A stretch of 61,370 nucleotides of DNA, filler included. It is 13 parts of 13 records of this genome, joined end to end, with 100 filler letters (N's around TTAATTAATTAA, not from the genome) between each part and the next. Parts side by side here need not be neighbours in the genome. Positions count along the whole stretch, not along the records: positions 25,842 to 29,335 come from SRR15195285_980; 12 more parts are not named here. One strand, given 5' to 3'. The position numbers and the translations under genes were made by a program. This document shows positions 3,950 through 57,858 of this stretch, one piece after another; positions within the stretch are counted from its first letter, which is position 1, and every line of letters starts with the position of its first letter. The notes below the pieces were generated by a model, which saw only the letters and a program-made list of their open reading frames with translations, was not told where the DNA came from and made no database searches.

Positions 3950-4269
3950 ACACGCTGAGCGAATGCAGCCGCCCAGCCTGCTTGCCACCGCCCCTGCTGC
4001 TGCTCCCTCTCTGTGCCGATCCCCTGCCAGCGTCACCCCGCCTCCACAGCGTCCACCATCCGCTCCCTCTGGCGCAGCTGACGCTGTGTGTACACCTGTA
4101 CGCGTCCGTCACAGTCACAGCGAGGGCTTGCTGGCGGCGTCGGGACGCGCAAGCAAGCAGCGGTCACCCGCCGCTCATTCGACTCATCACCCGGCCGGGG
4201 TTGCAAACTCCAAACTGGTTGGGTGGCACCGCTCCATCTGACCCTTCCGTTCAACGCGCCGGAGTGAAT

Positions 4270-6493: not shown

Positions 6494-9287
6494 TCACGCA
6501 CACGCTGGCGGAGGCAGCAGGCCGACCAGCACGACCGACATCCCAACAGACACCGTGCCACCAACTAAGCCCGCTCCCCAGTTTTCCACACTGTCCTCTG
6601 TCACTTCCTCCGGATCGCGCTCCACCGCAGCGCGCTCGAGCTCTTTGTAGTACGAGTCCGATACGTCTGATAGTACAAGCTCCATCACGATCCGTTGGGC
6701 ACTTAGGAGCACGGCACTGCCAAGCACTGCCCAGATGCATAATGGCAGCGCCTCGTCCAGTGTAGGCAAAAGGGGCTCATCAGCGGGACCTTGCACTCCA
6801 CAGCTGGTACGGCTGCTGCGGTAAGCGTCCATCAGCAGTAGTACCCAAGCAATCAGGTGGAGGCACCAGTTCAGGCTCTGACCCACACTCTGGCCGGGCC
6901 CAGGTGCGTGAGAAGCTCTCAGCATCAGCTCTCTTCTCCGTTTGGCTTCACGCTTTTCAGCCTTGGAGCGCTTGCCGCACCTCATACTAAAGCCACAGCA
7001 GCGGCCATCATTGTCACTGGCAGACACAGGCCCACTACGTCGTCTTCGCTCCCGGAGGGCCGTCACTGCACCGAATATGCACACCAGCAACTCGCCAACA
7101 GCAAAACACAGCCAGCCACCTGCGACCTCTCGTGGTGCCAGTCCTCTGCCCGCGCAGCCTGCGGCGATGACAAGCGATGACACGATGTGCATGCCAGCCT
7201 CCATCACACCATACGCGCGGTCGTCGTTACGCAATCGCTCGACAGCTTTCAGTCGCACTCCAGTGGAACCGTCGTGATCCTCATCATCTGAGTCCGAATC
7301 GGGCAGGTGCCAGCTAATGACTGCCAGGTGCACATGATGCGCCACAACCATCATCGCACAGCTTAGGCCTGTCCAGGCCAGCTGCGGCATTGCCGTGACC
7401 CATAACTCCACTAGTGAGCTACTGGCATTCTGCCAGTTCAGCACAATTGCCTCTGTTTTGGCGCCTGATGTGTTGTGCAGAGCGGCACTCAGCCGTGGCC
7501 CAAGCGGCGTCACTCTGGGGGCAGGACCGAGAGTTGCGGCCAAGATGTTGCCCATTGCCACTGTATAGCCCGCAAACGATATACTCACCGCATGAAGGCT
7601 GCCATTGGTAACGCTACCTACAACCTGTAGCGCGCTTCTGAAGCCGCAGACATCATTGCAGCTCTTGGTTTTCTTGCCATGCCGTTTCTTCTTGGCGGAG
7701 CTGATACAACGCAGTGGAAGCTGATAGAAAGTTCGAGTGGTCAGCACACAGAGTAGCGCAAGCAACAGGGCTACGCCTGTGTCAGGAGTGAACACTGCTG
7801 CGCCCTGCTCCGTCTGCAGGCTCTCCTGTTCCAGCACGACGAGCTCTGACGGGAGATCAAATAGTGGAGTGTCAACTGTCCTGTTTTGGTGTACGTCTGA
7901 CGCCACATTCGCAGCTGTGTAGGCAGTAGAAGCGCCACAGCCTCGTCTTGGAATCAGCCCAGCGATGGCAAGGCCAGACGCAAGAATCATCGCACTGACC
8001 ACAAGACCATATCCCCAGTTGTGTTGTTCAGCCATTTTCTTGAAGCTGTGTTTTGTCGAAAATCCAGATGACAAATGCTTCGCAAGCACTGCGACAATCA
8101 GCAGAAGCACCAGACAACCAGCCCCCGCCCACACTGCGAGATGCAACAACTCCACTGATGCTGCAGCTGCTTTGCCCAGAATCTTAGAATAGCTGATCAA
8201 GCACGCTCCATACAGCAGTGCTTTGACAGGATTCCCACGTTTGAGCCGCTGGGCTCCCAGAATTGGGCCACCGAGAGGGAGCCTGTACCTTTCCTGCACC
8301 TTCTCGGTAACAAACGCGTCCACAGACCTTCCTTCGAAGTGAATCACGTTCAGCACGAAACTGAATATCACGAGAGCACCCACCATGCAGAGTATTGCAA
8401 TGCTGGCAGCAATGTTTTGCTCAACAAAGCTCAACGGCGGCTCCGTTTTGCTCTGGGCGCGTGGAGGTAGGGCGCCGCTGACGATTACCCCAGCCGCCAG
8501 AATAGCAACGGAATCCGTGATCCCTGCTGATACATTACCGTCAATCCCAGCTGAACAGATTAGGTGTAGCGGGTGTGGACATAGGCAACGGCGTAGCGCT
8601 AGATTCGCGAGCGCGAGCAGCAACAGCCCGTGAACGACCCAAAAGCAGCATAGGCCGAGATCGTCGAGCCTGGTCTCATAACCACCATCATCGGTCCAGC
8701 TCGCCAGCCACGGATGGCTACTCCCATCGCCCAATGTAGAGCTGCTGTTCGCAGCCGAAGATATCGCGCCGGCACCCCAATGGGCACGGGCGAATGCCTG
8801 TGCCACACAGCACGAGTTATGCGTCATGAGCGGCGGCAGTGTGTGCACATTGAGAAACTGATGGGCTTACCGTGTGGACGACAAGACTCGCCGATAGAAT
8901 CGCCGCGGCGAAGCACAGCTGCAAGGCTGGCTGGGCTAGGTGCCGAACGTCTCTGCTTGAGTGACCTTCGACCTCTAGCATCGACGAGACGCTGTCTCGC
9001 GAGACGCTGTCTCGGGACACGCCATGGTGTTTGCCGCGCCGCTTCCTACGGCTTCCGTGAACGCGCCCGCCGTCTTCGTCATCGCTGCCAGCGCATCCAC
9101 AACAACCCGCGACGAACGACTGGAAACACCCGTTGCCATCATTGGAGCGCAGCTCAACTTCATAGAGCCGCCGGAACAGCGAATCGCTGACTCCCAGCGC
9201 TGCGATGGAGAGCAGCACCTTAGGGCAGTTCGACCAGTCCATGAGCAGGCCAACCGACAACGCCTCCTCGCCGGTCGTGGAGTTCAT
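6494..9287 (-). CDS. Polytopic membrane protein with repeated DUF350-like helical hairpins (2 exons)
   Basis: ORFs 8817-9287 and 6494-8848 are joined by a GTAAG...CACAG intron (about 8871-8799). Repeated motifs: NPVKALLYGACLIS, NWGYGLVVSAMILASG, AVSISFAGYTVAMG, AYGVMEAGMHIVSS, NWGAGLVGGTVSVG. Confidence 0.65.
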
Positions 9288-19147: not shown

Positions 19148-21177
<2,030 letters not shown>

Positions 21178-25446: not shown

Positions 25447-26040
25447 CCAGCCGCTGCTCCGTAGCCACAAAAACTACCACAGCCCGCCACAGCCCGCCCA
25501 GCCGCCCACGCTGCCTCCACCACCACCCTCGCCGGCTGTTATACCGCCGCAGCCCAGCCAGCGGCAGTGGCAGGGGCAGTGGCGCGGCAGCTCAGGGCAC
25601 AGGGCTGCAGAGGCGGTTGCGTCACGTCGCGTACTGTACTGCACTCGGCCGTACTGCACGGGGTCAGAACCACACTAATGTCAATACTGGTGTGCGGAAC
25701 AACCCAGTGTATCGGGGCGGTCCGCGGAGTGTGCTGCATTGNNNNNNNNNNNNNNNNNNNNNNNNNNNNNNNNNNNNNNNNNNNNTTAATTAATTAANNN
25801 NNNNNNNNNNNNNNNNNNNNNNNNNNNNNNNNNNNNNNNNNCAGTCACATAGGCAGAGGTGGAACAGTCTCTGGCTGACTGCATGGCATGGCACCATGCA
25901 TGGCTGCCGTTTTTGCCAAGATATTCACGCTGCAGTGAAAGTTCATTGTGAAAGTGCGCAACCGCCCTGCGCCGCGCTACGTGCTGCTACGCTGGGCTGG
26001 GCTGGAACCCTCTCCCCTCTGCCTCCCTAGCGAGACCACG

Positions 26041-26098
26041 CCAAGGGCCGAGGGCCGAGGGCCGAGGGCCGAGGGCCAAGGGCCAAGGGCCAAGGGCC
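26041..26098 (+). repeat. 7-bp tandem repeat (CCRAGGG)x8
   Basis: ccaagggccgagggccgagggccgagggccgagggccaagggccaagggccaagggcc, upstream of the CDS at 26160. Confidence 0.9.
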
Positions 26099-26159
26099 CC
26101 CGCCGCTGCTCATCGAAGAGCGCAGGGAGGGTCCCATTCCCACTCCCACTGCCATTCCC

Positions 26160-27713
26160 ATGGGCGAAGGCGCCGGGGCGCTGGACTACCCGAAGGGCGT
26201 GCTGGTGGCAGGCGCTGGCCCGCCCTCGCAGCACTGGGCGCTGAGCAGCGAGAGGGCGAGGCAGGACCAGCAGGCGCGCGTGGCTTGGGCGCAGCGCTGC
26301 GAGGACTTGGAGGCGGCGCAGCGGGCGGAGCGGGCGGTGGCCCAGCTGGAAGAGCAGGCGCGGGCGCGCGCGGAGGAGCTCGCGAAGGAGGGGCGCGATT
26401 TCGTAGTCGCGGGGCTCTCTGAGGCGCCAGAAGCTGCGCCAGAAGTTGCGCCGCGCGGCGCGGACAGCCGTGACGGCGACGGCGGCACCGCTGCCCGCGG
26501 TGCGGCGGCGGACAGGTTCAACATCACACCGCGAGGCACCGGTGGCATTGTAATCGACAAGGCAGCTGCGAAGGCAGATCGCATACGGCCGCCTGAAGTT
26601 CAGGTCCGCGTGCGCGTTGGAACGACAATCAGCGATGCCGAGGCCGACGAGAGTACGCACGCGAGCACTGGTTCGAGACGTCGTGGCCGATCGCGCTCCG
26701 CCGCGCCGGACGGGACTGGCCGACCGCGGACCGCGAGCTCGGCAACGGGCTCGCTTTTGCGCTCCGCGAGCCCGCCCGAGCACCTCGACGGCCCCGAACC
26801 GGCTGTGTGGCAAGGCAACAACACGGACGCGATGGAGCCTGGAGCTGGCGTTGCGATGCGAGTAGGCAATGAGCTGCGGCGCGGGCCCTCACTGGCGAAG
26901 GATCCGATGCGACTCACACGCCGCGAGTATCTCATGAGCCGAACACGCGGCGACCATGAAACAATCGACGCCCGCACACCGACGCGCGCGTCTCACGCTG
27001 CCGCAGCCTACAGCGCAGGCAGCTCAGAGGAAGAGGAGGACCATGTCCAGCCACCAGTGCCCGAGCGACACTGGATGGATGACGCACGAGCCTTAGATCA
27101 GCCCAGCTCTGCTGAAGAGGAGGAGCAGCGCCAGCTCCAGCAGTGGTACAGCAGGGGCAGGGGCAGGCACTACGCTTTCGAGAAGCAGATCATTGAAGCC
27201 AAGGCCAAGTCAGCGTGGGGGAACGACCACGCCGGTGTCCCAGGACGGCGAGCGCCTGTGCCCGTGTTGCCACAGAAGAACTCGCGCAACGCACTGCTCT
27301 CGCAGGCAGCTACCCTCTCTAGTCAGGGGGCGACTGCGGTCCAGCGCTCTCTGCGGCGAGGGCAGCATCAGCAGCAGAAGCAAACAACAGAAAAGCAACA
27401 GCGTGGCTCGGCAAGCTCGCCGCTCGACGGTTTCGCAGTACCAATGGGCGATGGTCCGGCGCGCCGCACTCGGCTTGAGCTTGCGTCACGAGATTTGCAG
27501 CGGCATGTCAAAAGCCAGGCTTTAGGGAACAGGACAAGGGTCGCACCAAATCCCGACAGTCCGACACGTGCGGGATATACGCGCATGGCAGGCCTACCGA
27601 TTGGCGGCGGCAGTCGTCGTCTTGCCTCGGGCGCCACATCCGCCGCTGCGTCCTCTACATCCAGGCGCGCGAGTACGGCCCGGCGCACACCTGTTATGGT
27701 TGTGCGCGCATGA
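26160..27713 (+). CDS. Hypothetical, largely disordered protein (517 aa)
   Basis: Long ATG-initiated ORF with a short coiled coil and R/S/A-rich tracts. Convergent with the rhodanese-Rid gene. Confidence 0.6.
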   Translation: MGEGAGALDYPKGVLVAGAGPPSQHWALSSERARQDQQARVAWAQRCEDLEAAQRAERAVAQLEEQARARAEELAKEGRDFVVAGLSEAPEAAPEVAPRGADSRDGDGGTAARGAAADRFNITPRGTGGIVIDKAAAKADRIRPPEVQVRVRVGTTISDAEADESTHASTGSRRRGRSRSAAPDGTGRPRTASSATGSLLRSASPPEHLDGPEPAVWQGNNTDAMEPGAGVAMRVGNELRRGPSLAKDPMRLTRREYLMSRTRGDHETIDARTPTRASHAAAAYSAGSSEEEEDHVQPPVPERHWMDDARALDQPSSAEEEEQRQLQQWYSRGRGRHYAFEKQIIEAKAKSAWGNDHAGVPGRRAPVPVLPQKNSRNALLSQAATLSSQGATAVQRSLRRGQHQQQKQTTEKQQRGSASSPLDGFAVPMGDGPARRTRLELASRDLQRHVKSQALGNRTRVAPNPDSPTRAGYTRMAGLPIGGGSRRLASGATSAAASSTSRRASTARRTPVMVVRA

Positions 27714-27777
27714 GTATCGGTGAATCCGCTAATGCAATGGCGCTTGTGGTCATTGTCATTGCTGCTCAGCCGCTGAA

Positions 27778-29148
27778 TTACAGCTTGGCTTTGATCACTT
27801 CGAACCTACTCTCCACTTCTTCTACCATATTGTCGATGAAGCTCTCGAGCTCCTCTACTCGGCTTTCCAACGCCACTACGCGCTCTTCGCTCTTCGCCAG
27901 CAACAGTTCGAGCGTCGATCCCTCCCCGCTACTGCTGCCCGGTGCATCACTAGGTTCGCCATAGCCATCCTCCACCTGCCGCGACAGACAGGAAGAGCAG
28001 ATGACTGATTACTGACGGCTCATCAAGCACTCGCGCTGCAACGATTAACAACCGCACCTCAAAGATGGCTTCGATCTCGACAGCAATGCTCATCGGCAGC
28101 GAGCCCATCCCTACAGCAGACCTCGCTCCCCAGCCATCCTCGCCAAACACTTCCGTCATCAGCTCGGCGTAGCCGTCGATGACACCCGGATGCTCACCAA
28201 AATCTGGACGAGCGTTGACCATGCCGAGCGACTTCACGACGCGTTTTATCCCATCTAGCGAGCCGATAGCGCCTTTAGCAATGGAAAGCAGGGAAATGCC
28301 CGTAGAACGGGCTGCCGCTTTCGCTTCGTCGAACGACACCTCATCTGGCACCTTGCCAATCACACGGGGTCGGGCAGAGCTGCCAGAGACGTAAAGCATG
28401 TTGCCAACTAGACGCTGCACGGACAGCAACGGCAAAGCTCGGTATCAACTACCATAAACCACATTCCGCCAAATTCTGCGAAGATGCTGGTCTGACGGTC
28501 GGTGTAGGGAGTGAGGGGGGAGCGGATGCTGTGAAGTCTCACGTAGGGAACGTAGCGACCGACTGGGACCAGCTCTGGGAGCTCGATGCCCAATGCTGCC
28601 AGGCGCCCTTCTGCTGTGAGGCTATCCGCCAACTCCTCGATGTCCGACAGGCCGCCGGCGTTGATTGTGTTGCTGTACCCAGCAGCCTCCAACGCTGACT
28701 TCGCGACGCCAGCACGGCCGCCGACAGCGCAGAAACATATGACTGGCACGTCCTTCTCTGGCAACAGTTCCGCGGCTTTGGCAACCAGCTCCTCCGCGCT
28801 GTCCATCGTGACGGGGCATTGTACCTACTCCCGACCAAACAGTCTCGTGGATCAGCTGTCTGGAACCTGGCTGGCAACGCAAGGTGCACATTTGAGTAGA
28901 TTCCATCACAATTCACAGCGCACTGTGATACCCCCCCAAAATGAGGGGAGAAACCGTTTCGCATTGAAATTGTGCGTCTCTGAGTGGACACCCACCCGTC
29001 TGGCGCGAACTTTCGGCAGTGGGTTCTGCTCTTGCTCGGCGGTTGAGCGCACGTCCAGCCAGACGGCGGTTGTGTCGGCTGCGGCGCTCGCCACCTCCTC
29101 TCGCGGGGACACGCCGTACGTCGCCATGCGGCTGCTATAGTCAGACAT
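27778..29148 (-). CDS. Rhodanese-Rid (YjgF/YER057c/UK114, Rid1-like) fusion with coiled-coil tail and PTS1 (exons 29148-29011, 28824-28543, 28414-28058, 27975-27778)
   Basis: Rhodanese motifs WLDVRS, VICFCAVGGRA and NAGGL run without a break, within one exon, into AEGRLAALGIELP..GRYVPY, then GNMLYVSG, VNARPDFGEHPGVIDG, ARSAVGMGSLP and VEIEAIFE. The protein ends in AKL*. An alternative ATG is at 29127. Confidence 0.9.
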
Positions 29149-29435
29149 ACCGGCAACTATTCCCGCATATGTCCAGTATAGTGCTCCCGCGGCGCCGCGC
29201 CGGCCGGCGCGCGCGCGCGTCCGCGGGCGCGTGCTATATATGCAACGTACTAGTATGGTACTCAAATCCCCATTCAACTTCTAAACTGGAAGGACTGCGG
29301 AGGTCACCGCGCGACCCGGCGGACGGCGCATTCGCNNNNNNNNNNNNNNNNNNNNNNNNNNNNNNNNNNNNNNNNNNNNTTAATTAATTAANNNNNNNNN
29401 NNNNNNNNNNNNNNNNNNNNNNNNNNNNNNNNNNN

Positions 29436-30485
29436 AGCGCACTGGACTGAGGTGGTGCAGGACGGCCAAGTGAAACACTTGGGAATCGGTGAGCATTGGG
29501 CTCAGCATGCATTCTGGGAGTACGATGTCTATCAAAACGGAGGTTTTTGGGGCACACCGTCTGGGTGGGTGCTACCGGTCATTGCACGCAACGACAGCGC
29601 GGTGGCGGAGCAGCTTGTGAGGGATGCGATCAACGACTGCCGCCGCAACGGCATTAACGAGTGGCACAACAATGACTACTGCAGTAACTGCGCGGGTGAG
29701 CTGGTCACGAATCCGGCCCAACTTCCCCCCCTCGCTGCTGGTGAGAGATATTTCACGCACAATTCTCATTGGTTTCGTAGATCTAAGAAAGGCTAACGCC
29801 GACGCAACTGTTTTGGAACTATTAAATTCGAATGCTGAAAGAGAGCTTGACTTCTGTGCTGTTTTCCTTGGAACAGGAGGAGTCTACGGCCAGTGCACGC
29901 CAGACGGTCTTGGCTGCCAGGCGTACCCAATGCGAGGGAACTGGTACGGTGGCGCGATGGTTTATGGACCTAATATTGGAAGCATTTATCTGGCTGCGCA
30001 GCGGATTTTGCCAAATCTCCCTGTCCCGCCACCTTCGCCGAACCCAACTCCAGCACCGCCACCTCCCGTCACACCCCCGCCGTCTGGGTGCAATGTCACT
30101 GCGAATTGGACTTTCACGTCATTAATCGCACCACCTCGCTTGGAGACGAATGTTTTCTTCGAATCTGCAGACGGTAAGAAACACAAACTCGCATGCATAC
30201 GCCACTAGTATGCTGTGGCTCGTCGAAGGTTCGCGTCAAACTTTCAACGCTTGCGTGGTTTGGTTTTGATTTCAAAATATAACAGGTTCGTTGGTCCTCA
30301 CACCGGGGAAAAATGATGGTTGGAAGACAGCAAAAGGTCGTCTCTACGGCGACTGGCAGATGGTCTTTGAGTATGGCACCGCCTTCAACGCTCGTCACCG
30401 CGACATTGGAGTCACATGCACACTGGCGAGGAATTGTAGCTTCATCCGCTGTCCCGTGTACACGTACACGCGCGTGGCGCTGTGA
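29436..30485 (+). CDS. 3' part of a putative six-hairpin glycosidase-like protein with a Pro-rich linker (multi-exon, 5' partial)
   Basis: GQVKHL...YQNGGFWGTPSGWVLPVIA...GINEW is typical of the end of an (alpha/alpha)6 barrel. It is followed by PPPSPNPTPAPPPP and further exons. Confidence 0.55.
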
Positions 30486-38000: not shown

Positions 38001-40173
38001 ATAAAGTTCAGTGTGCCAGTCATTGGCACGCTTATCAACGCCGACAAAATAGATGCGGCCAGGCCGTTACCAGCGCATTCATCATCGCACTGCTCAGCAC
38101 ACCCAGATACAGCGTTTTGTCCCCCAGCAAATGTCTCGTCAGGGCAACGATTGTAGCAATCGGGGTCGGGCTTCTTGAAGAATAGCACATTCAGAAACAT
38201 GCCTGTTCGTTGAGCACAACATGATTATGAATAAAAATTTGCAACGCCGAAAAGAGCTATGGCGATGAAAATGTGCAATGCCGAAAAACCACAAGGTCCA
38301 GTGTCGTACCGATTAGAATCGAGGCCCAAAACACCAGCAGTCGCTCATCTCGTAAAAATGGGTCTCCAGGGTAGCCGAATAGCATGCCTCCTAGGTCCCA
38401 TCGAGTGCGGAGTTGAATTGTCATTCGCGTAAACCAACTCACGTCTGCACGCTCCAGCAGCTGTAGCCGCACAGCATATGTGGAAGCCCTATGGTCGAAA
38501 GCATCACGTGCCCGCTCAGTTTGTTCCCCGGTTGCCTCAGCCACCAGATTTTTGTATACCTTGATGCTAAGTATAGTAGTAGCCAAGGACAATGTCAGCA
38601 CGCCAAATGCAGTGGCCGCAGAGGCAGGATTGTTCATGATCCACTCCCTGAACAGCAAATGAAGGTAGAGATACGAGACAGTCCGGCACGCAGGCACACA
38701 CACGCACACATGCATACAGTCAAGGTGGTTCTATTTGAATGCATTGAAATTTCGATCTCTAGCATCAGCAGCAGCGACGAAAACCAAAATCGCTCGCACA
38801 GGCACATACTTAGAAAACAGTCCCTCCACAGACATTCTGTTGAAACTTGGAGGTGGCCCGATGAACGTGGAGAACGACGTCAGGTGAGTGAAGGCACATG
38901 TAGAAGAGTCTTCAGTTTTCTCCACCAACACGCCATCTTTCCTCCACTGCTCCCCATCCCAGAATGAGCACTGCATCTCGTCCGCTAGATACGCGCGCAG
39001 CAATGCTCCACGCAAGCAACTACAGTCATCTGTCCATCGGGCGCAATCCTCGGCGCCGCCACGCACACCATAGCACCCCTTCGCTTCGACCATTGCTCTC
39101 TGAGCAGCAGCGCAAGAGTCCCGCCGTGACGGACAGTAAATCTGCTCCTCTTCTTCGCGTTTGCGCAGCGCGCGTTGTTCTTCTTCAACGGCAACTTCAA
39201 AATCACTCGAGTTGATGGAGCAACCAATCGTAGATAGTGACACATTGTCGAATACATCCATGGCCTCAGCTGTCAGTGTCGTTCGGTTCCACAGCCCTGC
39301 AATGTATGCCTCGACTTCTTCGAGAGTTCGATTGTCGAGATTTGTTGAGTAGTTGGCCAACGTATTTTGTGCTGGCATCGTGACAAGAAACGGCGTGGTC
39401 AGATTGGAGATGTTCATCTCTCGTGCTCTCGGCCTGCCATCGTCATCTGTTGTCATTTCGCTGAAAGTCACTGACGTAACACCAGACACTCTTTCGCCTC
39501 GAGCATCGCCGTCACTCAGTGATTTTGGCGACGCAAAAAGAGGCCCAAGTCCATTGTACTGAACGACTTGAGACTTCAACGAATCCGACTTGGCTGTTTC
39601 AAGTGCCCCTGCCGGCACCTGCACAACGCCTTGAATCACGCTATTTTCGAGTTCTGTCTTAGCATTGCGGCCCACGGTCATGTTGAATGCAGAAGAACTG
39701 AGCACAGTCGGCTCTTGCCCGTCCAGCATACGATGGGCAGAGGTTTCACCAATACTGTCGACGATGCTAGACAGTTGATCACTTCGGCGGCGATCCTGTT
39801 CATCACTTAGCTGCTCTTCTCCGTCTTCTTGGGTCCTCCGTCGCCTTCGTCGTGCGTCTGATTGCAGATCCGCAGTCTTGAACAGCGACGATAGAGCATC
39901 CACGACCGAGTCAAGAGGGTAGTCTAAGGCCACCCCAGCCGCAGTCACTTGAGCAATGGCATCAATGGCTACACTGGCTGCACTGTCAGTTAGTTCTGCA
40001 GGTTCTTTGACGAGCGCCGCCAAGCTAGACGTCACTCGTTCTGCAGATTCAGCTGTCACTGCAACTTTGCCTGTTGTGTTGCTGTCTGTGGAAGACGATG
40101 ATGGCATCAACAAAAGATCAGACAAGGCATCAATCAGAACCTCTCTCGCAGCTGCTCGTTCGTCCACCCCCCC
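35056..40173 (-). CDS. GAIN/GPS-domain polycystin-1/REJ-like multipass membrane protein with a cytosolic C2 domain (multi-exon, 5' partial)
   Basis: GPS motif CSFWDGEQWRKDG...CAFTHLTSF, polybasic RRRRRR site, TMs after the GPS, ERLLVFWASILI/MFLNVLFF, C2-like VHISVIECQGL...YVKLTIGGETLKSSVVTGVNPTW, and terminal TMs with IDPLKIV. Confidence 0.75.
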
Positions 40174-41094
40174 NNNNNNNNNNNNNNNNNNNNNNNNNNN
40201 NNNNNNNNNNNNNNNNNTTAATTAATTAANNNNNNNNNNNNNNNNNNNNNNNNNNNNNNNNNNNNNNNNNNNNGACGCGAGTCCGACTCATCGATCGAAT
40301 TATAGCCACCCGCGAGGCAACTCCAGCCGCCGGAATATATTGAAAGAGCCCGGATCCTACCCCCTCCGCCGGCAGCGCCGGGAGGTAAATCTCGATCCAA
40401 TTATCGTGAAGGCTGATCTGAAGACTCAAGAAACCTCGAAGATGACTGACGCTGAGACTGGCCAAAACGCATGCGCAAACGGAAGTTCGTGAGCATCACT
40501 CGACGCATGTACAGCCTGGCGTATATAAAATCAATAGTATAGTACAGCGTACTGTACTAATTACAGTTCTCATTACGAATACACTAATTACAATTCTGTA
40601 CATGTAGGATTCCTACTATTCATAGTACGCAATCCGGATGTTGCAGTTCGCGCCGTAGCGCATCGCCCTCTCCGTGCGTGCACGCACTGCACGGCAGCAC
40701 GGAGGCACACGGTCGTGTACACTGTGTACACAGCCTGTACTGTACGCGTGTACGGTACTAGCTACCGGTAGGAACTTCCTATGATGCAACAGCTGTGGGT
40801 TCCTAATCCTATACGCATGTACAGTAGATCTATGATACTGTAGCTACGCGGCACCGTAGACCGTACCGTTGCGAGTCGGTCAACATGGATGATATACGCA
40901 CGAACAGCGCGCCGGGGGAGCCTCGGTGTGAGCCACGCACCGCCACGTATGCGAGAGGAGTTCGTGCTGAAGAAGTGGCCTCAGAGCTGCGAACAGCTTA
41001 CGCAAAAGCAGCTTCAGTACTCTCCTACTAGTAGATTCTCTGGTGTGTACACACTGAATTCAGTTCAGACCACCCTCTTCTCCACGAGCTGCTG

Positions 41095-44370: not shown

Positions 44371-45020
44371 GGCGTCATCTTCTGCTACATGTACGAATGG
44401 GACTTTGATTCGCATTTCCATTGGACTTGATTTAGCTTGCACAAACTCGTCACTCGTTCGCGAGCGCGCGTCTTGCGAGGACTATTGTTTAAAACACTCT
44501 CATCTCGCGCGTCACGCCATGCTATGTTTCCTAGTCTGCATGTGTCGATCTGCAGCACGACCTGGTCGTCGTTAAGCTCCGTGTTATCCAGTAGCCATTG
44601 CTTGATCTTCGCTGCCTGGCTACTATCACTGGGTTCTGCTCCTCATGGATGATATAGACTGGCAAGACCACATCTTTTGTGCGCTGTCACGCTAGGTTGA
44701 TGACGAAGATGGTGCCCCAAAGCTGAAGCTGCTTGCGCCTGACGCGGCGCTGGATGAGGAGGCAGCCGAGCTGCCCGAGAGACCGCCGCTCGCGCCGACG
44801 GTGTTGAATGTCGCCGAAGGGTTGCCCAGAACCGCCGCGTGCTCTTCACCTGACGCCACACTGGTGGACATCGCACAGTGAGCGTCGACTAGGGCAAGCT
44901 GTAGCGCTCTGTGTTTTGAANNNNNNNNNNNNNNNNNNNNNNNNNNNNNNNNNNNNNNNNNNNNTTAATTAATTAANNNNNNNNNNNNNNNNNNNNNNNN
45001 NNNNNNNNNNNNNNNNNNNN

Positions 45021-45063
45021 GGCTCTGGCTCCGGCTCCGGCTCTGGCTCTAGCTCCGGCTCCG
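45021..45063 (-). repeat. Coding (Pro-Glu)n hexanucleotide repeat at the contig end
   Basis: ggctct/ggctcc repeats encode PEPELEPEPEPEPEP, the likely cause of the assembly break. Confidence 0.85.
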
Positions 45064-48000
45064 GTGCAGACGGCGGCACGCCCTCAGGCATTTGCAGCCC
45101 TGCAGCGTTGCTAGCGGTCGTGATATCATGCGAGCAGCCCGGCCACTCGTGCTCGATGACTGCCTCGAGCTCTGCCTCGAATACCCGCAAGCTGCCCAGA
45201 CATGCGCCGTGAAGACCGCCGGCGCGACAACGAGCCTCCAGAACGACGCCAGTCGCGCCCTTCTGTCCGATCGACACCTCTATCCGCAGCGCCCTTGCTA
45301 TATGCGCGACAATCGCGTGCTTCATCTGCTGTTTTGTCTCGGCCTCCAGTGCCGTCTCAACGACATCCGAAGCCACGCCCGCGCTCAAGGCCTCCGCCTT
45401 CAGCTCCTTCATCGTCAGGGACGACAGTGCTGTCAGGTAAGGGCTCCCAGCGATCGCATCGGGAACTGCAGCGCCCTCGATCCTTGCAATCGTGACCAGG
45501 TCGCGCCGCCACACCACCGTCTCCTCGCCACACCACTTTGCGCAGCGACTCAGTACGACTGCCAAGAAACCCGGTGGCAGTGGCTGGTGAAACTCGAAGC
45601 TACGCACGACGGCATCCACGCCGGCAGGGTCGCCATTCAGACTTTCAGCCAGCTCGGCCAACGATCGATGCTTGTGCACATCAACTTCCTTGCTCGCCGC
45701 CTCCAGAAGCACCTCCTGTGTCTGCTTGAGCTGAACTCTGATTATGCCACCGGGTGTCAGCTGATCTGCCGACTGGATCACGAACGACGTGCCGCATGGC
45801 ATGACTAGCTCGTCTTCGCTCGGAATGTGCGAATATTCTTGCACGTCCCGGGCGCAGCTGCTGCTGATGCAGAAGATTACTCGCTTGCCGTCGTTACCAG
45901 CGAACTGCTTCACGACGCCCAGATTGGTTGAAGTCGAAGAAAACGACCACCAGACCACTGGCTCACCAGCTTCAGCATCGTGCTGCAGCTCCTCGAGCGA
46001 AATGTCCGGCCGCGGATCCTTGATGCCACGATACAGGAACTCGCCGCTCTGGACCTTGACGATTGCAGCCGGCGAAATGCCAGCGGAACCTGCCGGAACT
46101 CCAGGCACATGCTCCGCGCTGCTGTCCGCTGGGTTCTGAGTCACGAAGTCGCTCCAATCCACCACTTTTGCTGCGACGAGACGCTTGATCGCTGTGCTGG
46201 GCGAAGACTTCAGTTGTTGCACCAGCTGCAGCGCTTCCGACTGACTTGCCAGCTTAAGCTTGTCGACGGCACCGAGAAACTCATGGATCCCCTCCTTGAG
46301 GTCAACCGGTGGCAGTTTCAGCAGAGCTCGCTGCAGCAGCCCGATATATAGCCAGTACGGCCGAACTTTCTCGGGCTGTTGAGAGCGGAGTGCGCTGTTC
46401 AACGGACGGTACAGATTCGCTTTCTCGTCGGGCGAAGAGTGAGTATTCTCCTGCGTGTACAGGTTGATGGCTGCTATCTCGTCCCGGTTCAGCTCATTCG
46501 CGTCGCACGATGCACCCTGTAGAATGATGGAATCTGCTTTCGCGAACGCAATTTCCAGCCCTTTCGCAAGCTCCTCGGCGAGCATCGTGCCAGTCTTCAC
46601 AATCGATGCAATCGCATCCTCAAGCCCAACTTGGGCCGAATTCACAGCAGCGCCGTCTTCCATGCCAGCAAGGAAGCGTGTGAACTGGCTCCGAGCTGCA
46701 GCAGCTGCTAGGGCCTCTCTCCGATCTGGCAAACGCATTGGCAGCAGCAACTGATCGGCGATGCTCAGCCTCGTGAGTAGACCAAGTTCCACAAGCAGAT
46801 CGACGATGAAATCCATCTGTGCCGGATCGTGGACAATCGGCGGCTGCAGGCCACGCCACAGCCACGGCAGCAGCGTAGGCCTGTCCAGTTCCCCTCGGGC
46901 CAAAAACCGGTGCCCCAGATCCTGAAGCTGCGCGTGTGCAGGATCAGCTGATGGGTCGAGCTGATTCAATCGCCGGGCGAGGTCATGGTCCACCAGCACT
47001 TTCATCACATCCACCAGACGCTGCGGTTCCAAAAACACACGGTCTCGGAGTGCCGGCGAATGGGAGTCAGGAAACAACACCTCGCCAGTAATCCGCAGGT
47101 ACATCATGGCGCGGCGCACCAGCTCAGGATCAGCCGCAATCTTCCGGGCTACTTGACAGCGCCGCTGCTTCAGGTAGTCGATGTTGATCTCGGGGCCCAT
47201 CAGCTCCTGAAAGAGCTGAGCGGCTTCGTCTGGCCATGTCTTCCACGAGACGAACAGCTCGTTGTAGTACTGCTGCAACTCCGTAGCTCGCCGTGCTGCA
47301 TTCGCTTCGTCATGCGTCATGTCACGCCCTACACTCCACCAGTGATCTGGGAATGCAGGGAGACTTTCAACCAAGGCAGACAGCCGCTTGTGCACAGCCT
47401 TCGCGCTGCGATGGCGAACTGTAAATTCCGTTGCTTTTTCTCCCAAAAGCGATAGCGAGAAGGTATACTCCCGGAAGCTGCTCTCGGCGGCCTCTTCAGG
47501 CGCCGCAGATGTCAAAAAGGCCTCCATGCCATCGCGCCATCGCTGGAGCTCCAATGCACTTCCGGCGTCAAACGCGGTGATATTTGCTTTGGTGCCTGCC
47601 GACACTAGCTCGAAACTGAAAGGCCTGTCCGGCCACGGCTTCCGAGGCTGCCGCATCGCAACCCCTGGCACAGTCAGATCGACCGAGATTGGCGCTGACC
47701 CGACAGCTACGGTAAATGTGCCAGTGCTCGAGATTTCAGCACGACAGACAACAAGCTCGGAGGCATCAGCCAACGGAGTCAGCTTGCCAATGATCCCCAG
47801 CGCCTCGTCTGCTGCCCGTGGCACGGCGGGCAGTGCGCCCAAGATCGCAGCGAAATCGTCGTGGCCGTGCTCCGTCGCCACCTCCGCCGCTGTTTGCCCG
47901 GTATCAGTGAGCACAGTGCCGTCGAAGATCACGCCCTGATCAACAAGCCAGCGATACTCATCGACTGCGCCATGGTACGCCAGCTGGTGGAGCAGGCCGT

Positions 48001-48842
48001 ACCGACGGTCTCTGGGCACCGAGTTGATCATCTCGTTCGGCAGTGCACACGGAGCATCTCTCGCCGAAAACAACTGCTGCTGCATCTCCGACCATCTCGC
48101 ATGCTTGGCAGCGTGAACGACGCTCTGCAGCATCTTCATCCGCGCCACGCGGTCGACTGACACCTCCGAGCGGACCAGTTCAACCACGAAATGTGCATCG
48201 ACAGCATCCACATCAGGAGGTTCGGTTAACACCTGCTGCAGGTGTTCGCACGTCACAGACGACTGCTCCGCACACAGAGTCCTTGCTGCCCGCAGGATTG
48301 ACACATATGTGTTCGGCTGCGGCCTGCCAAACTCAGGGAAGGCATCGCTGTCGAAGGCTGCGGTGACCAGCTGCTCACGAAGATCCGCGAAGCCGGCAAG
48401 CGTCTTCGCACTGACGGCAATCGCTTCCTCTGACAGTCGCAATGGCTGAGAAACTACCCGCTGCAGGTGCCGAATCCGTGCAGCGTAGGCCTCTGGGTCC
48501 CTGTCTCTGAGACCGTCGAGCTCTCGCTCCTGTGCGGCTGCAGTTGTGCGTAGGGAAGCACTGATTGCGGTGACCATCTGGCTGCATCGCGAGCGCACAA
48601 GCGACTGGTCGTCGATCTCATCGGCGTGGCTGGCCACGAGGATCACCTTGGAACCCGGCGCGCAGGTCTGGATCAGAGTAGCCCAACCAACCATCTTCTG
48701 CTCCATGGACTCCAACGCCTCGACCTCACCAGCTGCCGATCCAGGAGAATGGGCGGAGAGTGCCACGTTCCACACCAGCACGTACAAGGTAGCCTCCGAC
48801 AGAAACGTCTGGTGCATCTCCTGGTACTCGTCGTGCCCGCCC
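45021..48842 (-). CDS. Roco-family (Roc-COR) GTPase with ankyrin, PH, PX and ADP-ribosyltransferase insertions (partial at both ends)
   Basis: Uninterrupted frame across the contig. Roc: GGHDEYQEMHQTFLSEATLYVLVWN, ILVASHAD, AVSAKT. COR: LRITGEVLF, RVFLEPQRLVDVMKVL, LLVELGL, LPPGFLAVVLSR, VVWR. ART: LYRG, WSFSSTST, SEDE. Confidence 0.85.
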
Positions 48843-48983
48843 NNNNNNNNNNNNNNNNNNNNNNNNNNNNNNNNNNNNNNNNNNNNTTAATTAATTAANN
48901 NNNNNNNNNNNNNNNNNNNNNNNNNNNNNNNNNNNNNNNNNNCAACTTCTCAGCTCAAACTAGTTGAATCAAGCCACGCAGTG

Positions 48984-57750: not shown

Positions 57751-57858
57751 NNNNNNNNNNNNNNNNNNNNNNNNNNNNNNNNNNNNNNNNNNNNTTAATT
57801 AATTAANNNNNNNNNNNNNNNNNNNNNNNNNNNNNNNNNNNNNNNNNNNNGGCGGGCG

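What the first reader, a model, noticed from the sequence alone, without database searches (positions are those of the whole stretch)
27778..29148. Peroxisome-targeted rhodanese-Rid imine deaminase fusion
Seen: splicing four exons at canonical GT-AG sites gives about 324 aa. It has a single rhodanese domain with the active-site loop CAVGGR, fused within one exon to a bacterial-type Rid1-like domain that keeps the catalytic Arg (ARSAVG) and Glu (VEIE). A coiled coil follows, ending in -AKL*. Known: AKL is a canonical PTS1. Rid proteins with this Arg hydrolyse enamines/imines such as 2-aminoacrylate or imino acids from flavin amino-acid oxidases. Rhodaneses carry persulfide sulfur, and D-amino acid oxidase is peroxisomal and converts D-cysteine to 3-mercaptopyruvate. 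Inference: a coupled enzyme for cysteine catabolism or detoxification, handling both the reactive imine and the sulfur. I am not aware of this fusion being described.
Basis: partly seen in the sequence, partly recalled or inferred. Interest (0 to 1): 0.78.

Follow-up and report, generated by a model that had tools for sequence, protein, structure and literature searches.

The report
Rhodanese–Rid1 fusion enzyme with peroxisomal tail
A marine protist gene joins a small sulfur-transfer domain to a bacterial-type imine-detoxifying domain and ends in a conserved peroxisome address tag, a combination not found described elsewhere.

Summary
The product has four parts: a PspE-like single rhodanese domain with the loop CAVGGR, a Rid domain with the catalytic Arg and Glu, a heptad helix, and a C-terminal -AKL. 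The rhodanese-Rid junction lies inside exon 2, so the fusion does not depend on any splice. Intron 3 removal is seen in RNA contigs of two runs. Junctions 1 and 2 rest on contiguous relatives only.

The Rid part is closest in sequence and fold to the characterised Rid1 proteins PA0814 and ACIAD3089, a subfamily that the literature calls prokaryote-only. The fusion occurs in about six closely related marine eukaryote lineages. A scan of 1.84 billion representative proteins found it nowhere else among the 150 hits listed. -AKL is kept in every lineage whose C-terminus could be read.

Most likely this is a trimeric, peroxisome-targeted bifunctional enzyme. The proposed coupling in cysteine catabolism is untested. 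Bacterial relatives sit beside D-serine-dehydratase-like genes, not sulfur-transfer genes. I rate it a new variant of known kinds, of moderate interest.

The parts
28996..29148 (-). Exon 1 (51 aa): start codon 29148-29146 and the N-terminal half of the rhodanese domain. No N-terminal targeting extension.
   Evidence: The same start motif and a contiguous exon1-exon2 join appear in relatives P0032, P0035, P0036. No upstream in-frame ATG.
28825..28995 (-). Intron 1, 171 nt, GT..AG, phase 0.
   Evidence: Absent from relatives' contiguous sequences. Retained in one metatranscriptome contig, X1 record 2. Unspliced, it runs into an in-frame stop.
28543..28824 (-). Exon 2 (94 aa): C-terminal half of the rhodanese domain, then the N-terminal helix and first strand of the Rid domain. 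This exon holds the fusion junction.
   Evidence: Rhodanese E 5e-4; PspE NF007627 E 1e-6; both motifs sit in one frame in 15 of 15 relatives; in the P0293 model the rhodanese helix 111-121 runs straight into Rid helix 123-129.
28714..28731 (-). Rhodanese active-site loop CAVGGR (Cys83 to Arg88 of the 329-aa product).
   Evidence: Identical loop in 15 of 15 relatives. It is a six-residue Cys-X4-Arg loop.
28543..28617 (-). Part of exon 2 that belongs to the Rid domain (N-terminal helix and the conserved Tyr-containing strand).
   Evidence: In relative P0293, PF14588 starts at residue 124, which is profile position 1. Free-standing relatives begin at the same motif: P0044 and P0008.
28415..28542 (-). 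Intron 2, 128 nt, GT..AG, phase 0.
   Evidence: The join is contiguous in P0006, P0293, P0033, P0034, P0037, P0295, P0300. No RNA cover in the four runs laid.
28058..28414 (-). Exon 3 (119 aa): core of the Rid (PF14588, Rid1-like) domain.
   Evidence: PF14588 E 3.9e-8, 33.7 bits. (3d01 E 1.2e-17; PA0814 4.6e-15; ACIAD3089 2.7e-9). RNA contigs X1, X12 and X7 cover parts of it.
28121..28123 (-). Codon of the conserved Rid arginine (Arg243 of the product), in the motif ARSAVG.
   Evidence: aligned to the Arg of 3d01 and PA0814. Present in 14 of 14 relatives. PMC5619798 and PMC4433059 passages say this Arg predicts deaminase activity.
28076..28078 (-). Codon of the conserved Rid glutamate (Glu258), the first Glu of VEIE.
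   Evidence: PMC4433059 passage: Rid1-3 retain the Arg and Glu of RidA.
27976..28057 (-). Intron 3, 82 nt, GT..AG, phase 0.
   Evidence: An RNA contig of X12 joins 27975 to 28058, and loose ends in X7 agree. The join is contiguous in P0005 and P0038-P0041.
27778..27975 (-). Exon 4 (65 aa + TAA): acidic/Ser-Gly linker, heptad helix, C-terminal AKL.
   Evidence: X9 RNA contig covers 27729-27983. Homologous last exons occur in L001 and L002.
27790..27915 (-). Predicted amphipathic or coiled-coil helix (about residues 285-326).
   Evidence: Heptad a/d pattern read by eye from the translation. The equivalent stretch in P0007 is a single helix, 206-237, with 10-residue block means of pLDDT 79-98. 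Only weak coiled-coil-type Pfam matches.
27778..27789 (-). Codons for Ala-Lys-Leu plus the stop: a PTS1-type C-terminal tripeptide.
   Evidence: AKL is also the end of P0003, P0308, P0310, L002, L001 (after an inferred extra intron) and P0007.

Best explanation
This is one spliced eukaryotic gene for a 329-aa bifunctional protein. The N-terminal part is a single-domain, PspE-like rhodanese. Its Cys83 in a six-residue loop would carry sulfane sulfur as a persulfide. With almost no linker it continues into a Rid1-type Rid domain. That domain would form the usual Rid homotrimer, with Arg243 and Glu258 at the subunit interfaces, and would hydrolyse reactive enamines and imines such as 2-aminoacrylate or imino acids to keto acids and ammonia. 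A C-terminal helix then presents a conserved -AKL, most likely a PTS1 that PEX5 reads to import the pre-assembled trimer into peroxisomes.

Shown here: the gene structure, the domain identities, the catalytic motifs, and the conservation of the fusion and of -AKL.

Inferred: both enzyme activities, the trimer, and the peroxisomal location.

I think the two domains most likely act side by side in one compartment. The Rid domain would clear imines or enamines released by peroxisomal flavin oxidases or PLP enzymes, and the rhodanese domain would handle persulfide or thiosulfate sulfur. A shared cysteine-derived substrate is possible but is the minority reading. The Rid1 module was probably acquired from bacteria once. 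It gained the helix and AKL, and in one sub-lineage it became joined to a pre-existing eukaryotic single-domain rhodanese.
For: Gene and fusion:
- Exon model.
- The junction lies inside exon 2, and the Cys loop and Rid N-terminus share one frame in 15 of 15 relatives.
- Exon-limited DNA similarity to L001.
- Intron 3 is spliced in RNA contigs of two runs, X12 and X7.
- The last exon and 49 nt of 3' UTR are covered by an oligo-dT RNA contig, X9.

Domains:
- Relative P0293 (74% identical to window exon 3) passes both Pfam gathering scores: PF00581 23.6 against 22.2, and PF14588 54.6 against 35.
- Its model has mean pLDDT 86.9. It matches Rid1-type structures 2otm, 3d01, 9bkb/9bki and 9bk9 with TM 0.70-0.75, and E. 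coli PspE (2jtq) with TM 0.76 at 35% identity.
- The window's exon 3 hits 3d01 (1.2e-17), PA0814 (4.6e-15) and ACIAD3089 (2.7e-9).
- For the P0007 model, Rid1-type structures give TM 0.79-0.87 and RidA structures 0.52-0.67.

Activity precedent:
- PA0814 and ACIAD3089 are Rid1 proteins. They deaminate imines in vitro and rescue a Salmonella ridA mutant on serine or cysteine (PMC5619798, passages).
- The Arg and Glu are kept in 14 of 14 relatives.
- Close bacterial homologues lie next to D-serine-dehydratase-like PLP genes in 8 of 52 loci, and are fused to one in P0025 and P0026. A PALP piece is fused to three tandem copies in P0001, P0002 and P0004. This fits a 2-aminoacrylate or enamine substrate.

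Trimer:
- Three copies of P0007 residues 47-238 scored 0.87, best of 3 controls 0.00.
- The mark was reached by 21 of 30 proteins solved as pairs of one chain and 0 of 23 solved as single chains. On eukaryotes the counts were 17 of 29 and 0 of 30.
- The runs agree in at least 96% of contacts, and the partner's pLDDT is at least 88.
- Confident contacts include 178-192, 196 and 198, which cover the conserved Arg181 and Glu196.
- Rid trimers are solved, so this pass may be from memory.

Targeting:
- -AKL ends the window protein, P0003/P0308/P0310, L002, L001 (after a GT..AG intron) and the 61%-identical P0007. The preceding residues differ.
- AKL was sufficient to import trimeric CAT into yeast peroxisomes (PMC2120261, abstract in the listing).
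- Mammalian UK114/RidA was localised to the peroxisomal matrix (PMC5979572, passage).
- There is no N-terminal extension.

Origin:
- The six eukaryote-type Rid rows form one clade (SH-aLRT 100) among bacterial-type rows.
- Free-standing rhodanese homologues exist: P0166 and P0186.
Against: - No enzyme activity, oligomer or localisation has been measured.
- The window's own exon pieces fall just below the Pfam gathering scores, because each domain is split by an intron: Rhodanese 20.9 against 22.2, and PF14588 33.7 against 35.
- Junctions 1 and 2 have no RNA support in the window's own lineage. One metatranscriptome contig (X1) keeps intron 1, which would truncate the protein.
- No genome is held. 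I could not check that the organism has PEX5 or peroxisomes, or any candidate imine-producing or sulfur-donating partner with a PTS1.
- The trimer prediction was made on a relative that lacks the rhodanese domain. It gives no confident contacts in the C-terminal helix, so the role of the helix is open.
- A functional link between the two domains has no independent support. 0 of 149 ORFs flanking bacterial homologues were rhodaneses at E <= 1e-6 or 1e-8.
- The Rid-helix-AKL form appears to exist without a rhodanese in P0007 and P0044.
- The tree is unrooted, and most 'bacterial' rows are unnamed metagenome proteins. The direction of transfer is therefore inferred from distribution only.
Confidence: 0.6

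Rival explanations
1. Dedicated coupled enzyme of cysteine or D-cysteine breakdown. One substrate stream feeds both domains. For example, a peroxisomal oxidase or desulfhydrase would act on cysteine, the Rid domain would hydrolyse the resulting imine or 2-aminoacrylate, and the rhodanese domain would take the sulfur from 3-mercaptopyruvate, sulfide or a persulfide.
For: - The two domains are joined with almost no linker, and the join is conserved in all 15 relatives read. This suggests selection for proximity.
- Rid1 proteins rescued a ridA mutant on cysteine as well as on serine (PMC5619798, Fig 4 legend passage).
- Other solved rhodanese fusions, to persulfide dioxygenase (5ve3) and persulfide reductase (4ocg), appeared among the structural matches. 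They show that rhodanese domains are often fused to a sulfur-pathway partner.
Against: - 0 of 149 ORFs next to the nearest bacterial homologues were rhodaneses. The recurrent partners there are D-serine-dehydratase-like enzymes, GntP permeases and M19 dipeptidases.
- The loop is of the PspE type. From recall, it is not the loop of 3-mercaptopyruvate sulfurtransferases.
- The Rid-helix-AKL form appears to function without a rhodanese in a sister lineage.
- No oxidase or desulfhydrase could be sought, because no genome is held.
Confidence: 0.15
2. The same bifunctional protein, but cytosolic. The C-terminal AKL is not used as a PTS1, and the helix serves oligomerisation or partner binding.
For: - Localisation is untested.
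- Peroxins could not be sought.
- A C-terminal tripeptide at the end of a long helix may be poorly accessible. In the P0007 model the helix runs to residue 237 of 238.
Against: - AKL is kept in five sequence groups, while neighbouring residues and even the intron structure change.
- AKL alone suffices for import in yeast (PMC2120261, abstract in the listing).
- A basic residue precedes it in the window protein.
Confidence: 0.2
3. The rhodanese domain is not a sulfurtransferase here. It would be a redox- or persulfide-sensing module that regulates the Rid domain, or simply a passenger imported by piggy-back on the PTS1-bearing Rid trimer.
For: - Pfam scores for the rhodanese part are marginal, 20.9-27.7 bits.
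- From general knowledge, many single rhodanese domains have no demonstrated catalytic role.
- The Rid-helix-AKL module appears to exist on its own.
Against: - The Cys loop is identical in 15 of 15 relatives.
- The fold matches the active sulfurtransferase PspE with TM 0.76 at 35% identity.
- NCBIfam's best match is PspE.
Confidence: 0.1
4. Gene-model artefact: two neighbouring genes, or a pseudogene, wrongly joined.
For: - One RNA-library contig retains intron 1.
- Public ORF-level calls split the locus into pieces named 'phage shock protein E' and 'enamine deaminase RidA'.
Against: - The rhodanese loop and the start of the Rid domain are in one uninterrupted exon.
- P0006 and P0293 carry both domains in one contiguous sequence.
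- Exon borders match the limits of DNA conservation.
- Intron 3 splicing is seen in RNA.
- The split calls read on into introns, so they are artefacts of intron-blind ORF calling.
Confidence: 0.03

Closest known systems
Rid1 subfamily proteins PA0814 (P. aeruginosa, PDB 9bk9) and ACIAD3089 (A. baylyi, 9bkb/9bki), plus the uncharacterised Atu1372 (3d01) and SO_1960 (2otm)
   Same: - They are the best sequence and fold matches of the Rid part.
- The conserved Arg and Glu are kept.
- They share the extra N-terminal helix of PF14588.
- A trimer is predicted.
- PA0814 and ACIAD3089 are shown imine and 2-aminoacrylate deaminases (PMC5619798).
   Different: - Those are free-standing bacterial proteins of about 130-165 residues.
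- Here the domain is eukaryotic and interrupted by spliceosomal introns.
- It carries an N-terminal rhodanese and a C-terminal helix with AKL.
- The literature read states that Rid1-7 occur only or mainly in prokaryotes.
E. coli PspE (PDB 2jtq) and other single-domain rhodaneses
   Same: - About 100-residue single rhodanese fold.
- Six-residue Cys loop.
- Best NCBIfam match and best rhodanese fold match, TM 0.76 at 35% identity.
   Different: - From recall, PspE is periplasmic and free-standing.
- Here the domain has no signal peptide and is fused to a Rid domain.
- The nearest free-standing relatives are eukaryote-type metagenome proteins P0166 and P0186.
Mammalian RidA / UK114 in peroxisomes
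   Same: It is a Rid-family imine deaminase reported in the peroxisomal matrix of rat liver (PMC5979572 passage citing Antonenkov et al. 2007, which I did not read).
   Different: - UK114 belongs to the RidA subfamily.
- It is also cytosolic.
- It is not fused to anything.
- This protein is Rid1-type and carries an explicit AKL tail.
Rid domains fused to enamine-producing PLP enzymes (P0025 and P0026: D-serine-dehydratase-like + PF14588; P0001, P0002, P0004: PALP piece + three PF14588 domains) and the 3x-RidA proteins of PMC4433059
   Same: The same Rid1-like domain at 48-58% identity is covalently linked to a metabolic partner. Tandem Rid fusions are described in PMC4433059.
   Different: In those, the partner makes the Rid substrate. 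A rhodanese makes no known imine or enamine, so the logic of this fusion is not the same.
Rhodanese fusions of sulfur metabolism (persulfide dioxygenase-rhodanese 5ve3; persulfide reductase-rhodanese 4ocg)
   Same: A single catalytic rhodanese domain is fused to another enzyme. These appear among the fold matches of the rhodanese part.
   Different: Those partners are sulfur-oxidising or sulfur-reducing enzymes. No Rid partner appeared among the hits the protein scans listed or in five literature searches.

Membership tests
Rhodanese homology domain (PF00581), catalytic sulfurtransferase type | Profile match over the whole domain | tested here: inconclusive
   The window's exon 2 piece alone scores 20.9 bits against a cut-off of 22.2, because the domain is split by intron 1. 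I could not send the spliced protein to the tool. Relatives with the contiguous domain pass: P0293 23.6 and P0032 27.7. P0036 at 21.7 does not.
Rhodanese homology domain (PF00581), catalytic sulfurtransferase type | Catalytic Cys at the start of a six-residue active-site loop | tested here: met
   CAVGGR at 28731-28714. Identical in 15 of 15 relatives. That a six-residue loop marks sulfurtransferases, as against the seven-residue loop of Cdc25-type phosphatases, is recalled knowledge.
Rhodanese homology domain (PF00581), catalytic sulfurtransferase type | Rhodanese alpha/beta fold | tested here: met
   In the model of relative P0293, 10-residue block means of pLDDT over residues 11-120 are 86-97. 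It matches PspE 2jtq at TM 0.76 and other rhodaneses. This was tested on a relative, not on the window protein.
Rhodanese homology domain (PF00581), catalytic sulfurtransferase type | Sulfur-transfer activity | not testable with these tools
   Needs an enzyme assay.
Rid (YjgF/YER057c/UK114) family, Rid1 subfamily | Profile match to the family | tested here: met
   Window exon 3: PF14588 E 3.9e-8, 33.7 bits, just under the cut-off of 35 because the N-terminal part lies in exon 2; PF01042 E 1.2e-4. Contiguous relatives score 54.6 (P0293) and 58.8 (P0007).
Rid (YjgF/YER057c/UK114) family, Rid1 subfamily | Conserved Arg (and Glu) that predicts imine deaminase activity in RidA and Rid1-3 | tested here: met
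   The Arg codon at 28123-28121 aligns to the Arg of 3d01 and PA0814. Arg and Glu are kept in 14 of 14 relatives. The criterion comes from PMC4433059 and PMC5619798.
Rid (YjgF/YER057c/UK114) family, Rid1 subfamily | Closer to Rid1 members than to RidA or other subfamilies | tested here: met
   All four PDB sequence hits are PF14588-type, two of them named Rid1 in PMC5619798. Fold search of P0007 gives Rid1-type TM 0.79-0.87 against RidA 0.52-0.67. The formal criterion, NCBI CDD model YjgF_YER057c_UK114_like_1, could not be run.
Rid (YjgF/YER057c/UK114) family, Rid1 subfamily | Homotrimer with active sites at the subunit interfaces | tested here: inconclusive
   A prediction only, and on relative P0007 residues 47-238 in three copies. 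Score 0.87, best of 3 controls 0.00. The mark was reached by 21 of 30 proteins solved as pairs of one chain and 0 of 23 solved as single chains. The runs agree in at least 96% of contacts, and the partner's pLDDT is at least 88. The interface includes Arg181 and Glu196. The pass may be from memory of solved Rid trimers.
PTS1-targeted peroxisomal matrix proteins | C-terminal tripeptide of the (S/A/C)-(K/R/H)-(L/M) type at the very end | tested here: met
   AKL followed by TAA. The consensus is recalled. AKL is shown sufficient in yeast in PMC2120261 (abstract in the listing).
PTS1-targeted peroxisomal matrix proteins | Tripeptide conserved in orthologues | tested here: met
   AKL appears in all five sequence groups whose C-terminus could be read: the window, P0003/P0308/P0310, L002, L001 (after an inferred GT..AG intron) and P0007. 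The 'HAIL' ending of P0005 and P0038-P0041 is read-through into that intron.
PTS1-targeted peroxisomal matrix proteins | Organism has PEX5-dependent import, and the protein is found in peroxisomes | not testable with these tools
   No genome is held for the window. Localisation needs an experiment.

The most novel reading that the evidence does not exclude
An uncultured marine protist lineage captured a bacterial Rid1 gene, gave it a peroxisomal tail and welded it to a rhodanese. The result would be a peroxisomal module that processes sulfur-containing amino-acid intermediates. The Rid1 domain would hydrolyse the imine or enamine released from cysteine or D-cysteine by an oxidase or desulfhydrase, and the adjoining rhodanese Cys would capture the sulfane sulfur on the same trimer. 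This would give the first physiological substrate class for any Rid1 protein, and the first sulfurtransferase step placed in peroxisomes.
Probability: 0.15. Interest if true: 0.72.

Novelty: new variant of a known kind. Interest (0 to 1): 0.5.

Why it matters
Rid1-3 proteins are known imine deaminases in vitro. The papers read here say that nothing is known of their in vivo substrates, and that Rid1-7 are confined to prokaryotes. This gene shows a Rid1-type domain in a eukaryote, with spliceosomal introns and partial RNA support. It is also a 'Rosetta-stone' fusion: it nominates sulfur transfer as a functional neighbour of Rid1 and gives a concrete protein to assay.

The conserved AKL adds two candidate activities to the peroxisomal matrix of a little-known protist group: imine clearance by a dedicated enzyme, and persulfide handling.

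The practical lesson is that intron-blind ORF calls hid the fusion in public data. There its pieces are named 'phage shock protein E' and 'enamine deaminase RidA'.

Three limits apply:
- The fusion is restricted to a narrow clade.
- Both domain families are well known.
- The coupling itself is unproven.

Tried and rejected
- Whole-genome search of the window's assembly: none is held. No search was possible for peroxins, D-amino-acid oxidase, cysteine desulfhydrase or paralogues.
- Protein Atlas look-alikes of P0293: no usable hit.
- Bacterial promoter and terminator scan of the locus: uninformative for a eukaryotic gene.
- tblastn of the spliced product against the window: no second copy.
- Literature: five searches for a rhodanese-Rid link or a peroxisomal rhodanese gave nothing relevant. 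'Picozoa' plus 'peroxisom' gave 7 papers, judged from titles and abstract starts only.
- RNA cover: junctions 1 and 2 and most of exons 1-2 had no spliced RNA contig in the four runs laid. These are contigs, so absence of cover means nothing.
- Taxon: the ORF at 19570-21174 proved to be mitochondrial ATP synthase beta. The only label is a EukProt tag 'Picozoa sp. COSAG04' on P0295, a cluster mate of relative P0033. Single-cell assemblies can carry foreign DNA, so I treat this as a lead.
- Coiled-coil contacts: the three-copy prediction names no confident contact in residues 206-237. Whether the helices bundle is therefore left open.
- The idea that the L001 lineage lacks a PTS1 (ORF calls end in 'HAIL') was rejected. 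The DNA shows a GT..AG intron after the Val-Glu-Glu codons, then an exon ending AKL.
It was corrected.
- Neighbour survey of bacterial loci: 24 of 78 loci were dropped because my crude ORF picker lost the Rid ORF, and two more had no neighbouring ORF.
Full report
**What is in the sequence**

The finding lies on the minus strand. Reading the reverse complement and joining four open stretches in a script gives these exons:
- 29148-28996 (51 aa)
- 28824-28543 (94 aa)
- 28414-28058 (119 aa)
- 27975-27781 (65 aa), followed by TAA at 27780-27778

The introns are 171, 128 and 82 nt. All begin GT, end AG and sit between codons. No in-frame ATG lies upstream of 29148 before a stop, so there is no N-terminal presequence.

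- the loop CAVGGR (28731-28714)
- ARSAVG, with the Arg codon at 28123-28121
- VEIE, with the first Glu at 28078-28076
- a C-terminal Ala-Lys-Leu (27789-27781)

Exon 2 by itself contains the rhodanese Cys loop and then, in the same frame and without a stop, the first 25 or so residues of the Rid domain. The fusion therefore does not depend on any splice.

**Is the gene model real?**

Four lines of evidence say yes.

1. Database relatives that are contiguous across each junction reproduce my joins exactly.
   - Junction 1: P0031, P0032, P0035, P0036, P0148, P0316 and P0006.
   - Junction 2: P0006, P0293, P0033, P0034, P0037, P0295 and P0300.
   - Junction 3: P0005 and P0038-P0041.
2. DNA similarity between the window and the related metagenome locus L001 is confined to 28824-28535 and 28417-28055. 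These are exons 2 and 3 to within 8 nt.
3. RNA contigs were laid on the locus.
   - A 196-nt contig of run X12 (oligo-dT library), identical to the window, skips 82 nt and joins 27975 to 28058.
   - Loose ends of contigs in run X7 (poly-A metatranscriptome, another study) read the same join. I checked them by eye.
   - A contig of X9 covers 27729-27983, which is the last exon, the stop and 49 nt beyond.
4. P0006 and P0293 carry both domains in a single contiguous sequence.

Against this, no RNA from the window's own lineage covers junctions 1 and 2. One contig from an RNA library (X1, 28619-29300, with indels upstream, so from another strain) keeps intron 1. That contig could be pre-mRNA or DNA carried into the library.

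Public ORF calls for this locus and its relatives stop inside introns. P0309 is the window's own exon 3 read on into intron 3. P0147 is exon 2 read on into intron 2. Where such pieces carry a name they are called 'enamine deaminase RidA' or 'phage shock protein E'. The fusion is thus present in public data but not recognised there.

**What the domains are**

On the window's exon pieces, Pfam gives Rhodanese at E 5e-4 (20.9 bits, cut-off 22.2) for exon 2. For exon 3 it gives PF14588 YjgF_endoribonc at E 3.9e-8 (33.7 bits, cut-off 35) and PF01042 at 1.2e-4. NCBIfam's best match for exon 2 is the thiosulfate sulfurtransferase PspE, at 1e-6. Both Pfam scores fall just short because an intron cuts each domain.

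The contiguous relative P0293 is 74% identical to window exon 3. It passes both cut-offs, with PF00581 at 23.6 and PF14588 at 54.6. An AlphaFold model of P0293, built with a 26-row alignment, has mean pLDDT 86.9. Foldseek matches its C-terminal part to 2otm, 3d01, ACIAD3089 and PA0814 (TM 0.70-0.75). It matches its N-terminal part to E. coli PspE (2jtq, TM 0.76, 35% identity) and other rhodaneses. In that model the last rhodanese helix (111-121) runs directly into the first Rid helix (123-129), so the linker is only one or two residues.

**Which kind of Rid**

By sequence, window exon 3 finds four solved proteins: 3d01 (1.2e-17), PA0814 (4.6e-15), ACIAD3089 (2.7e-9) and 2otm (3.7e-8). Passages of PMC5619798 assign PA0814 and ACIAD3089 to subfamily Rid1. 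The same passages show that they deaminate imines in vitro and rescue a Salmonella ridA mutant on serine or cysteine, but do not act on iminoarginine.

For the model of relative P0007, Rid1-type structures score TM 0.79-0.87, and RidA structures only 0.52-0.67. The Arg that PMC4433059 and PMC5619798 call the predictor of deaminase activity is present, as is the Glu. Both are kept in 14 of 14 relatives read.

The formal CDD subfamily model could not be run.

**Distribution**

- A word-indexed search with exon 3 among longer proteins listed 30 hits. Only P0006 also carries the rhodanese domain.
- A search with P0006 gave 175 hits at E <= 0.001, of which 120 were listed. Those covering the rhodanese half were P0031-P0037, all close relatives.
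- A full HMMER scan of 1.84 billion cluster representatives with exon 2 gave 611 hits at E <= 0.001.
  - Of the 150 listed, 6 match through to the last residue of the query, across the domain junction. One is the window's own ORF, and the other five are 66-86% identical.
  - All others stop within the rhodanese part, except P0156 (to residue 89) and P0177 (to 87).
  - P0156 is a double rhodanese without a Rid domain. P0177 was not read.
- A scan of JGI metagenome contigs found two close loci (L001 91%, L002 87%) and 78 bacterial-type loci at 43-59%.

The Cys loop and the start of the Rid domain are in one frame in 15 of 15 database relatives, which fall into about six sequence lineages. None carries an NCBI or UniRef name.

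One cluster mate of relative P0033 bears the EukProt label 'Picozoa sp. COSAG04'. The window's ATP synthase beta gene has no named relative above about 80% identity. The organism is therefore an uncultured marine eukaryote without close named kin, and I do not name it further.

**The C-terminus**

Exon 4 encodes an acidic, Ser/Gly-rich linker and then about 40 residues with hydrophobic residues at a/d heptad spacing. The equivalent stretch in P0007 is modelled as one helix, 206-237, with 10-residue block means of pLDDT 79-98. The final AKL is found in the following:
- the window protein
- the near-identical P0003, P0308 and P0310
- L002
- P0007, which is 61% identical over exon 3
- L001, after one further step

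In L001 the ORF calls of that lineage end in '...HAIL'. The DNA shows GTGAGA directly after the Val-Glu-Glu codons and, after an AG, an exon that ends AKL plus a stop.

Thus AKL is kept in five sequence groups while neighbouring residues and intron positions change. AKL was sufficient to import a trimeric reporter into yeast peroxisomes (PMC2120261, abstract as shown in the listing). Mammalian RidA/UK114 has been localised to the peroxisomal matrix (PMC5979572 passage).

**Oligomer**

Three copies of P0007 residues 47-238 were predicted to bind.
- The score was 0.87, and the best of 3 controls scored 0.00.
- The mark was reached by 21 of 30 proteins solved as pairs of one chain and by 0 of 23 solved as single chains. 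On eukaryotes the counts were 17 of 29 and 0 of 30.
- The runs agree in at least 96% of contacts, and the partner's pLDDT is at least 88.
- The confident interface covers 178-192, 196 and 198. It therefore includes the conserved Arg181 and Glu196 of that protein.

Rid trimers are solved structures, so this pass may reflect memory of them. It shows likeness rather than proof. No confident contact was named in the C-terminal helix.

**Clues to function from relatives**

In an unrooted maximum-likelihood tree of 90 Rid rows, the six eukaryote-type sequences form one clade with SH-aLRT 100 on a long stem, among bacterial-type rows. I used P0008-P0027 and P0043-P0099 but not P0100-P0146, and I left out P0057. 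The fused forms, P0007 and P0044 all fall inside that clade.

P0007 and P0044 have the Rid domain, and P0007 also has the helix and AKL. Neither shows a rhodanese domain. P0044 and its cluster mates begin with Met at the Rid N-terminal helix. Their contigs are short, so an upstream exon cannot be excluded. Free-standing homologues of the rhodanese part exist at 52-56% identity (P0166, P0186). The simplest history is one acquisition of a Rid1 gene, then addition of the helix and AKL, then fusion to a resident rhodanese in one branch. The order of these events is inferred, not shown.

Around the bacterial-type homologues I picked ORFs crudely. This dropped 24 of 78 loci where the Rid ORF was lost, and two more with no neighbouring ORF. 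I then scanned 89 first and 60 second neighbours against Pfam. The recurrent neighbours were:

| Neighbour | Loci |
|---|---|
| D-serine-dehydratase-like PLP enzymes (PF01168 with PF14031) | 8 of 52 |
| SMP-30-like proteins | 13 |
| Class I/II aminotransferases | 7 |
| GntP permeases | 6 |
| M19 dipeptidases | 5 |
| TauE exporters | 4 |
| Rhodaneses | 0 of 149 ORFs |

The same Rid type is fused to D-serine-dehydratase-like enzymes in P0025 and P0026. In triplicate, it is fused to the end of a PALP enzyme in P0001, P0002 and P0004. These associations fit a 2-aminoacrylate or enamine substrate for this Rid group. They give no independent support for a link with sulfur transfer.

**Most likely mechanism**

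I think this is a trimeric, peroxisome-targeted protein with two catalytic domains. Confidence is about 0.6 for the whole statement. For the separate parts I estimate about 0.93 that it is one real fused gene, about 0.8 that the Rid domain is an active deaminase, about 0.7 that the rhodanese is an active sulfurtransferase, and about 0.65 that it is peroxisomal.

The Rid1 domain would hydrolyse imines or enamines released by flavin oxidases or PLP enzymes. The rhodanese Cys83 would carry persulfide sulfur. The tight and conserved join speaks for it, as does the literature's note that Rid genes cluster with cysteine desulfurase and desulfhydrase genes. The bacterial neighbourhoods and the apparently rhodanese-free sister form speak against it. 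I put it at about 0.15.

Rivals are a cytosolic location (0.2), a non-catalytic or passenger rhodanese (0.1) and a gene-model artefact (0.03).

**Novelty**

Both domains, PTS1 signals and domain fusions of either family are known. Three things are not described in anything I could search:
- this combination of domains
- a Rid1-type protein in a eukaryote, where the papers read say Rid1-7 are confined, or largely confined, to prokaryotes
- a rhodanese with a PTS1

Five full-text searches found no such report. They cover open-access papers and bioRxiv only, and I could not query InterPro architectures. I rate the finding a new variant of known kinds, with interest 0.5.

Noticed in passing
window 29336-29436: An N-filled gap containing the twelve-base string TTAATTAATTAA (stops in all six frames) lies about 190 nt upstream of the gene's start codon. 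It looks like an artificial scaffold linker, so the promoter side of the gene may be incomplete.
   Followed up: no
window 19570-21174 (+): An intron-free ORF encodes mitochondrial F1 ATP synthase beta. Unnamed metagenome relatives are 83-93% identical, but the best named ones (green algae, a red alga, plants) reach only about 78-81%. The source organism therefore has no close named relative.
   Followed up: partly
window 26031-27713 (+): A 560-aa low-complexity ORF with no Pfam match ends 65 nt from the stop codon of the fusion gene on the other strand. The two genes converge very tightly, in keeping with a compact genome.
   Followed up: no
window 1247-2260 and 3089-4108 (-): Two ORFs carry the Lon protease AAA+/lid domains and the Lon substrate-binding domain. 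They are probably exons of one Lon gene.
   Followed up: no
window 44972-48886 (-), 53787-57803 (+), 38734-40221 (-), 6497-8866 (-): Four long ORFs. A 1305-aa ORF has a weak NAD:arginine ADP-ribosyltransferase match. A 1339-aa ORF has teneurin-type EGF repeats. A 496-aa ORF has a GPS motif. A 790-aa ORF has DUF350.
   Followed up: no
protein P0186 (Logan contig, 227 aa): A free-standing homologue of the rhodanese part (52% identical to exon 2) continues, after a proline-rich stretch, into a WD40 repeat. This may be another fusion of this rhodanese family, or read-through into a neighbouring exon or gene.
   Followed up: no
proteins P0001, P0002, P0004 (ENA contigs, 543-573 aa): The C-terminal end of a PALP-type (serine/threonine-dehydratase-like) enzyme is followed by three tandem PF14588 Rid domains. 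This would be a covalent Rid1-type trimer attached to an enamine-producing enzyme. The source organism is unknown.
   Followed up: partly
loci L015, L035, L039, L053, L057 (metagenome contigs): A recurring bacterial gene row: a Rid1-like gene beside a D-serine-dehydratase-like gene (absent in L015) and an M19 dipeptidase, with a GntP permease upstream in all but L057. It suggests a D-amino-acid or dipeptide utilisation cluster.
   Followed up: partly
locus L001 1250-1400: In this relative the last coding exon is split by an extra short intron rich in GAA repeats. Intron-blind ORF calls read this as an Arg/Lys run ending 'HAIL'. Intron positions also differ between lineages: L001 lacks introns 1 and 3, and P0033 has one inside the rhodanese domain.
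   Followed up: yes
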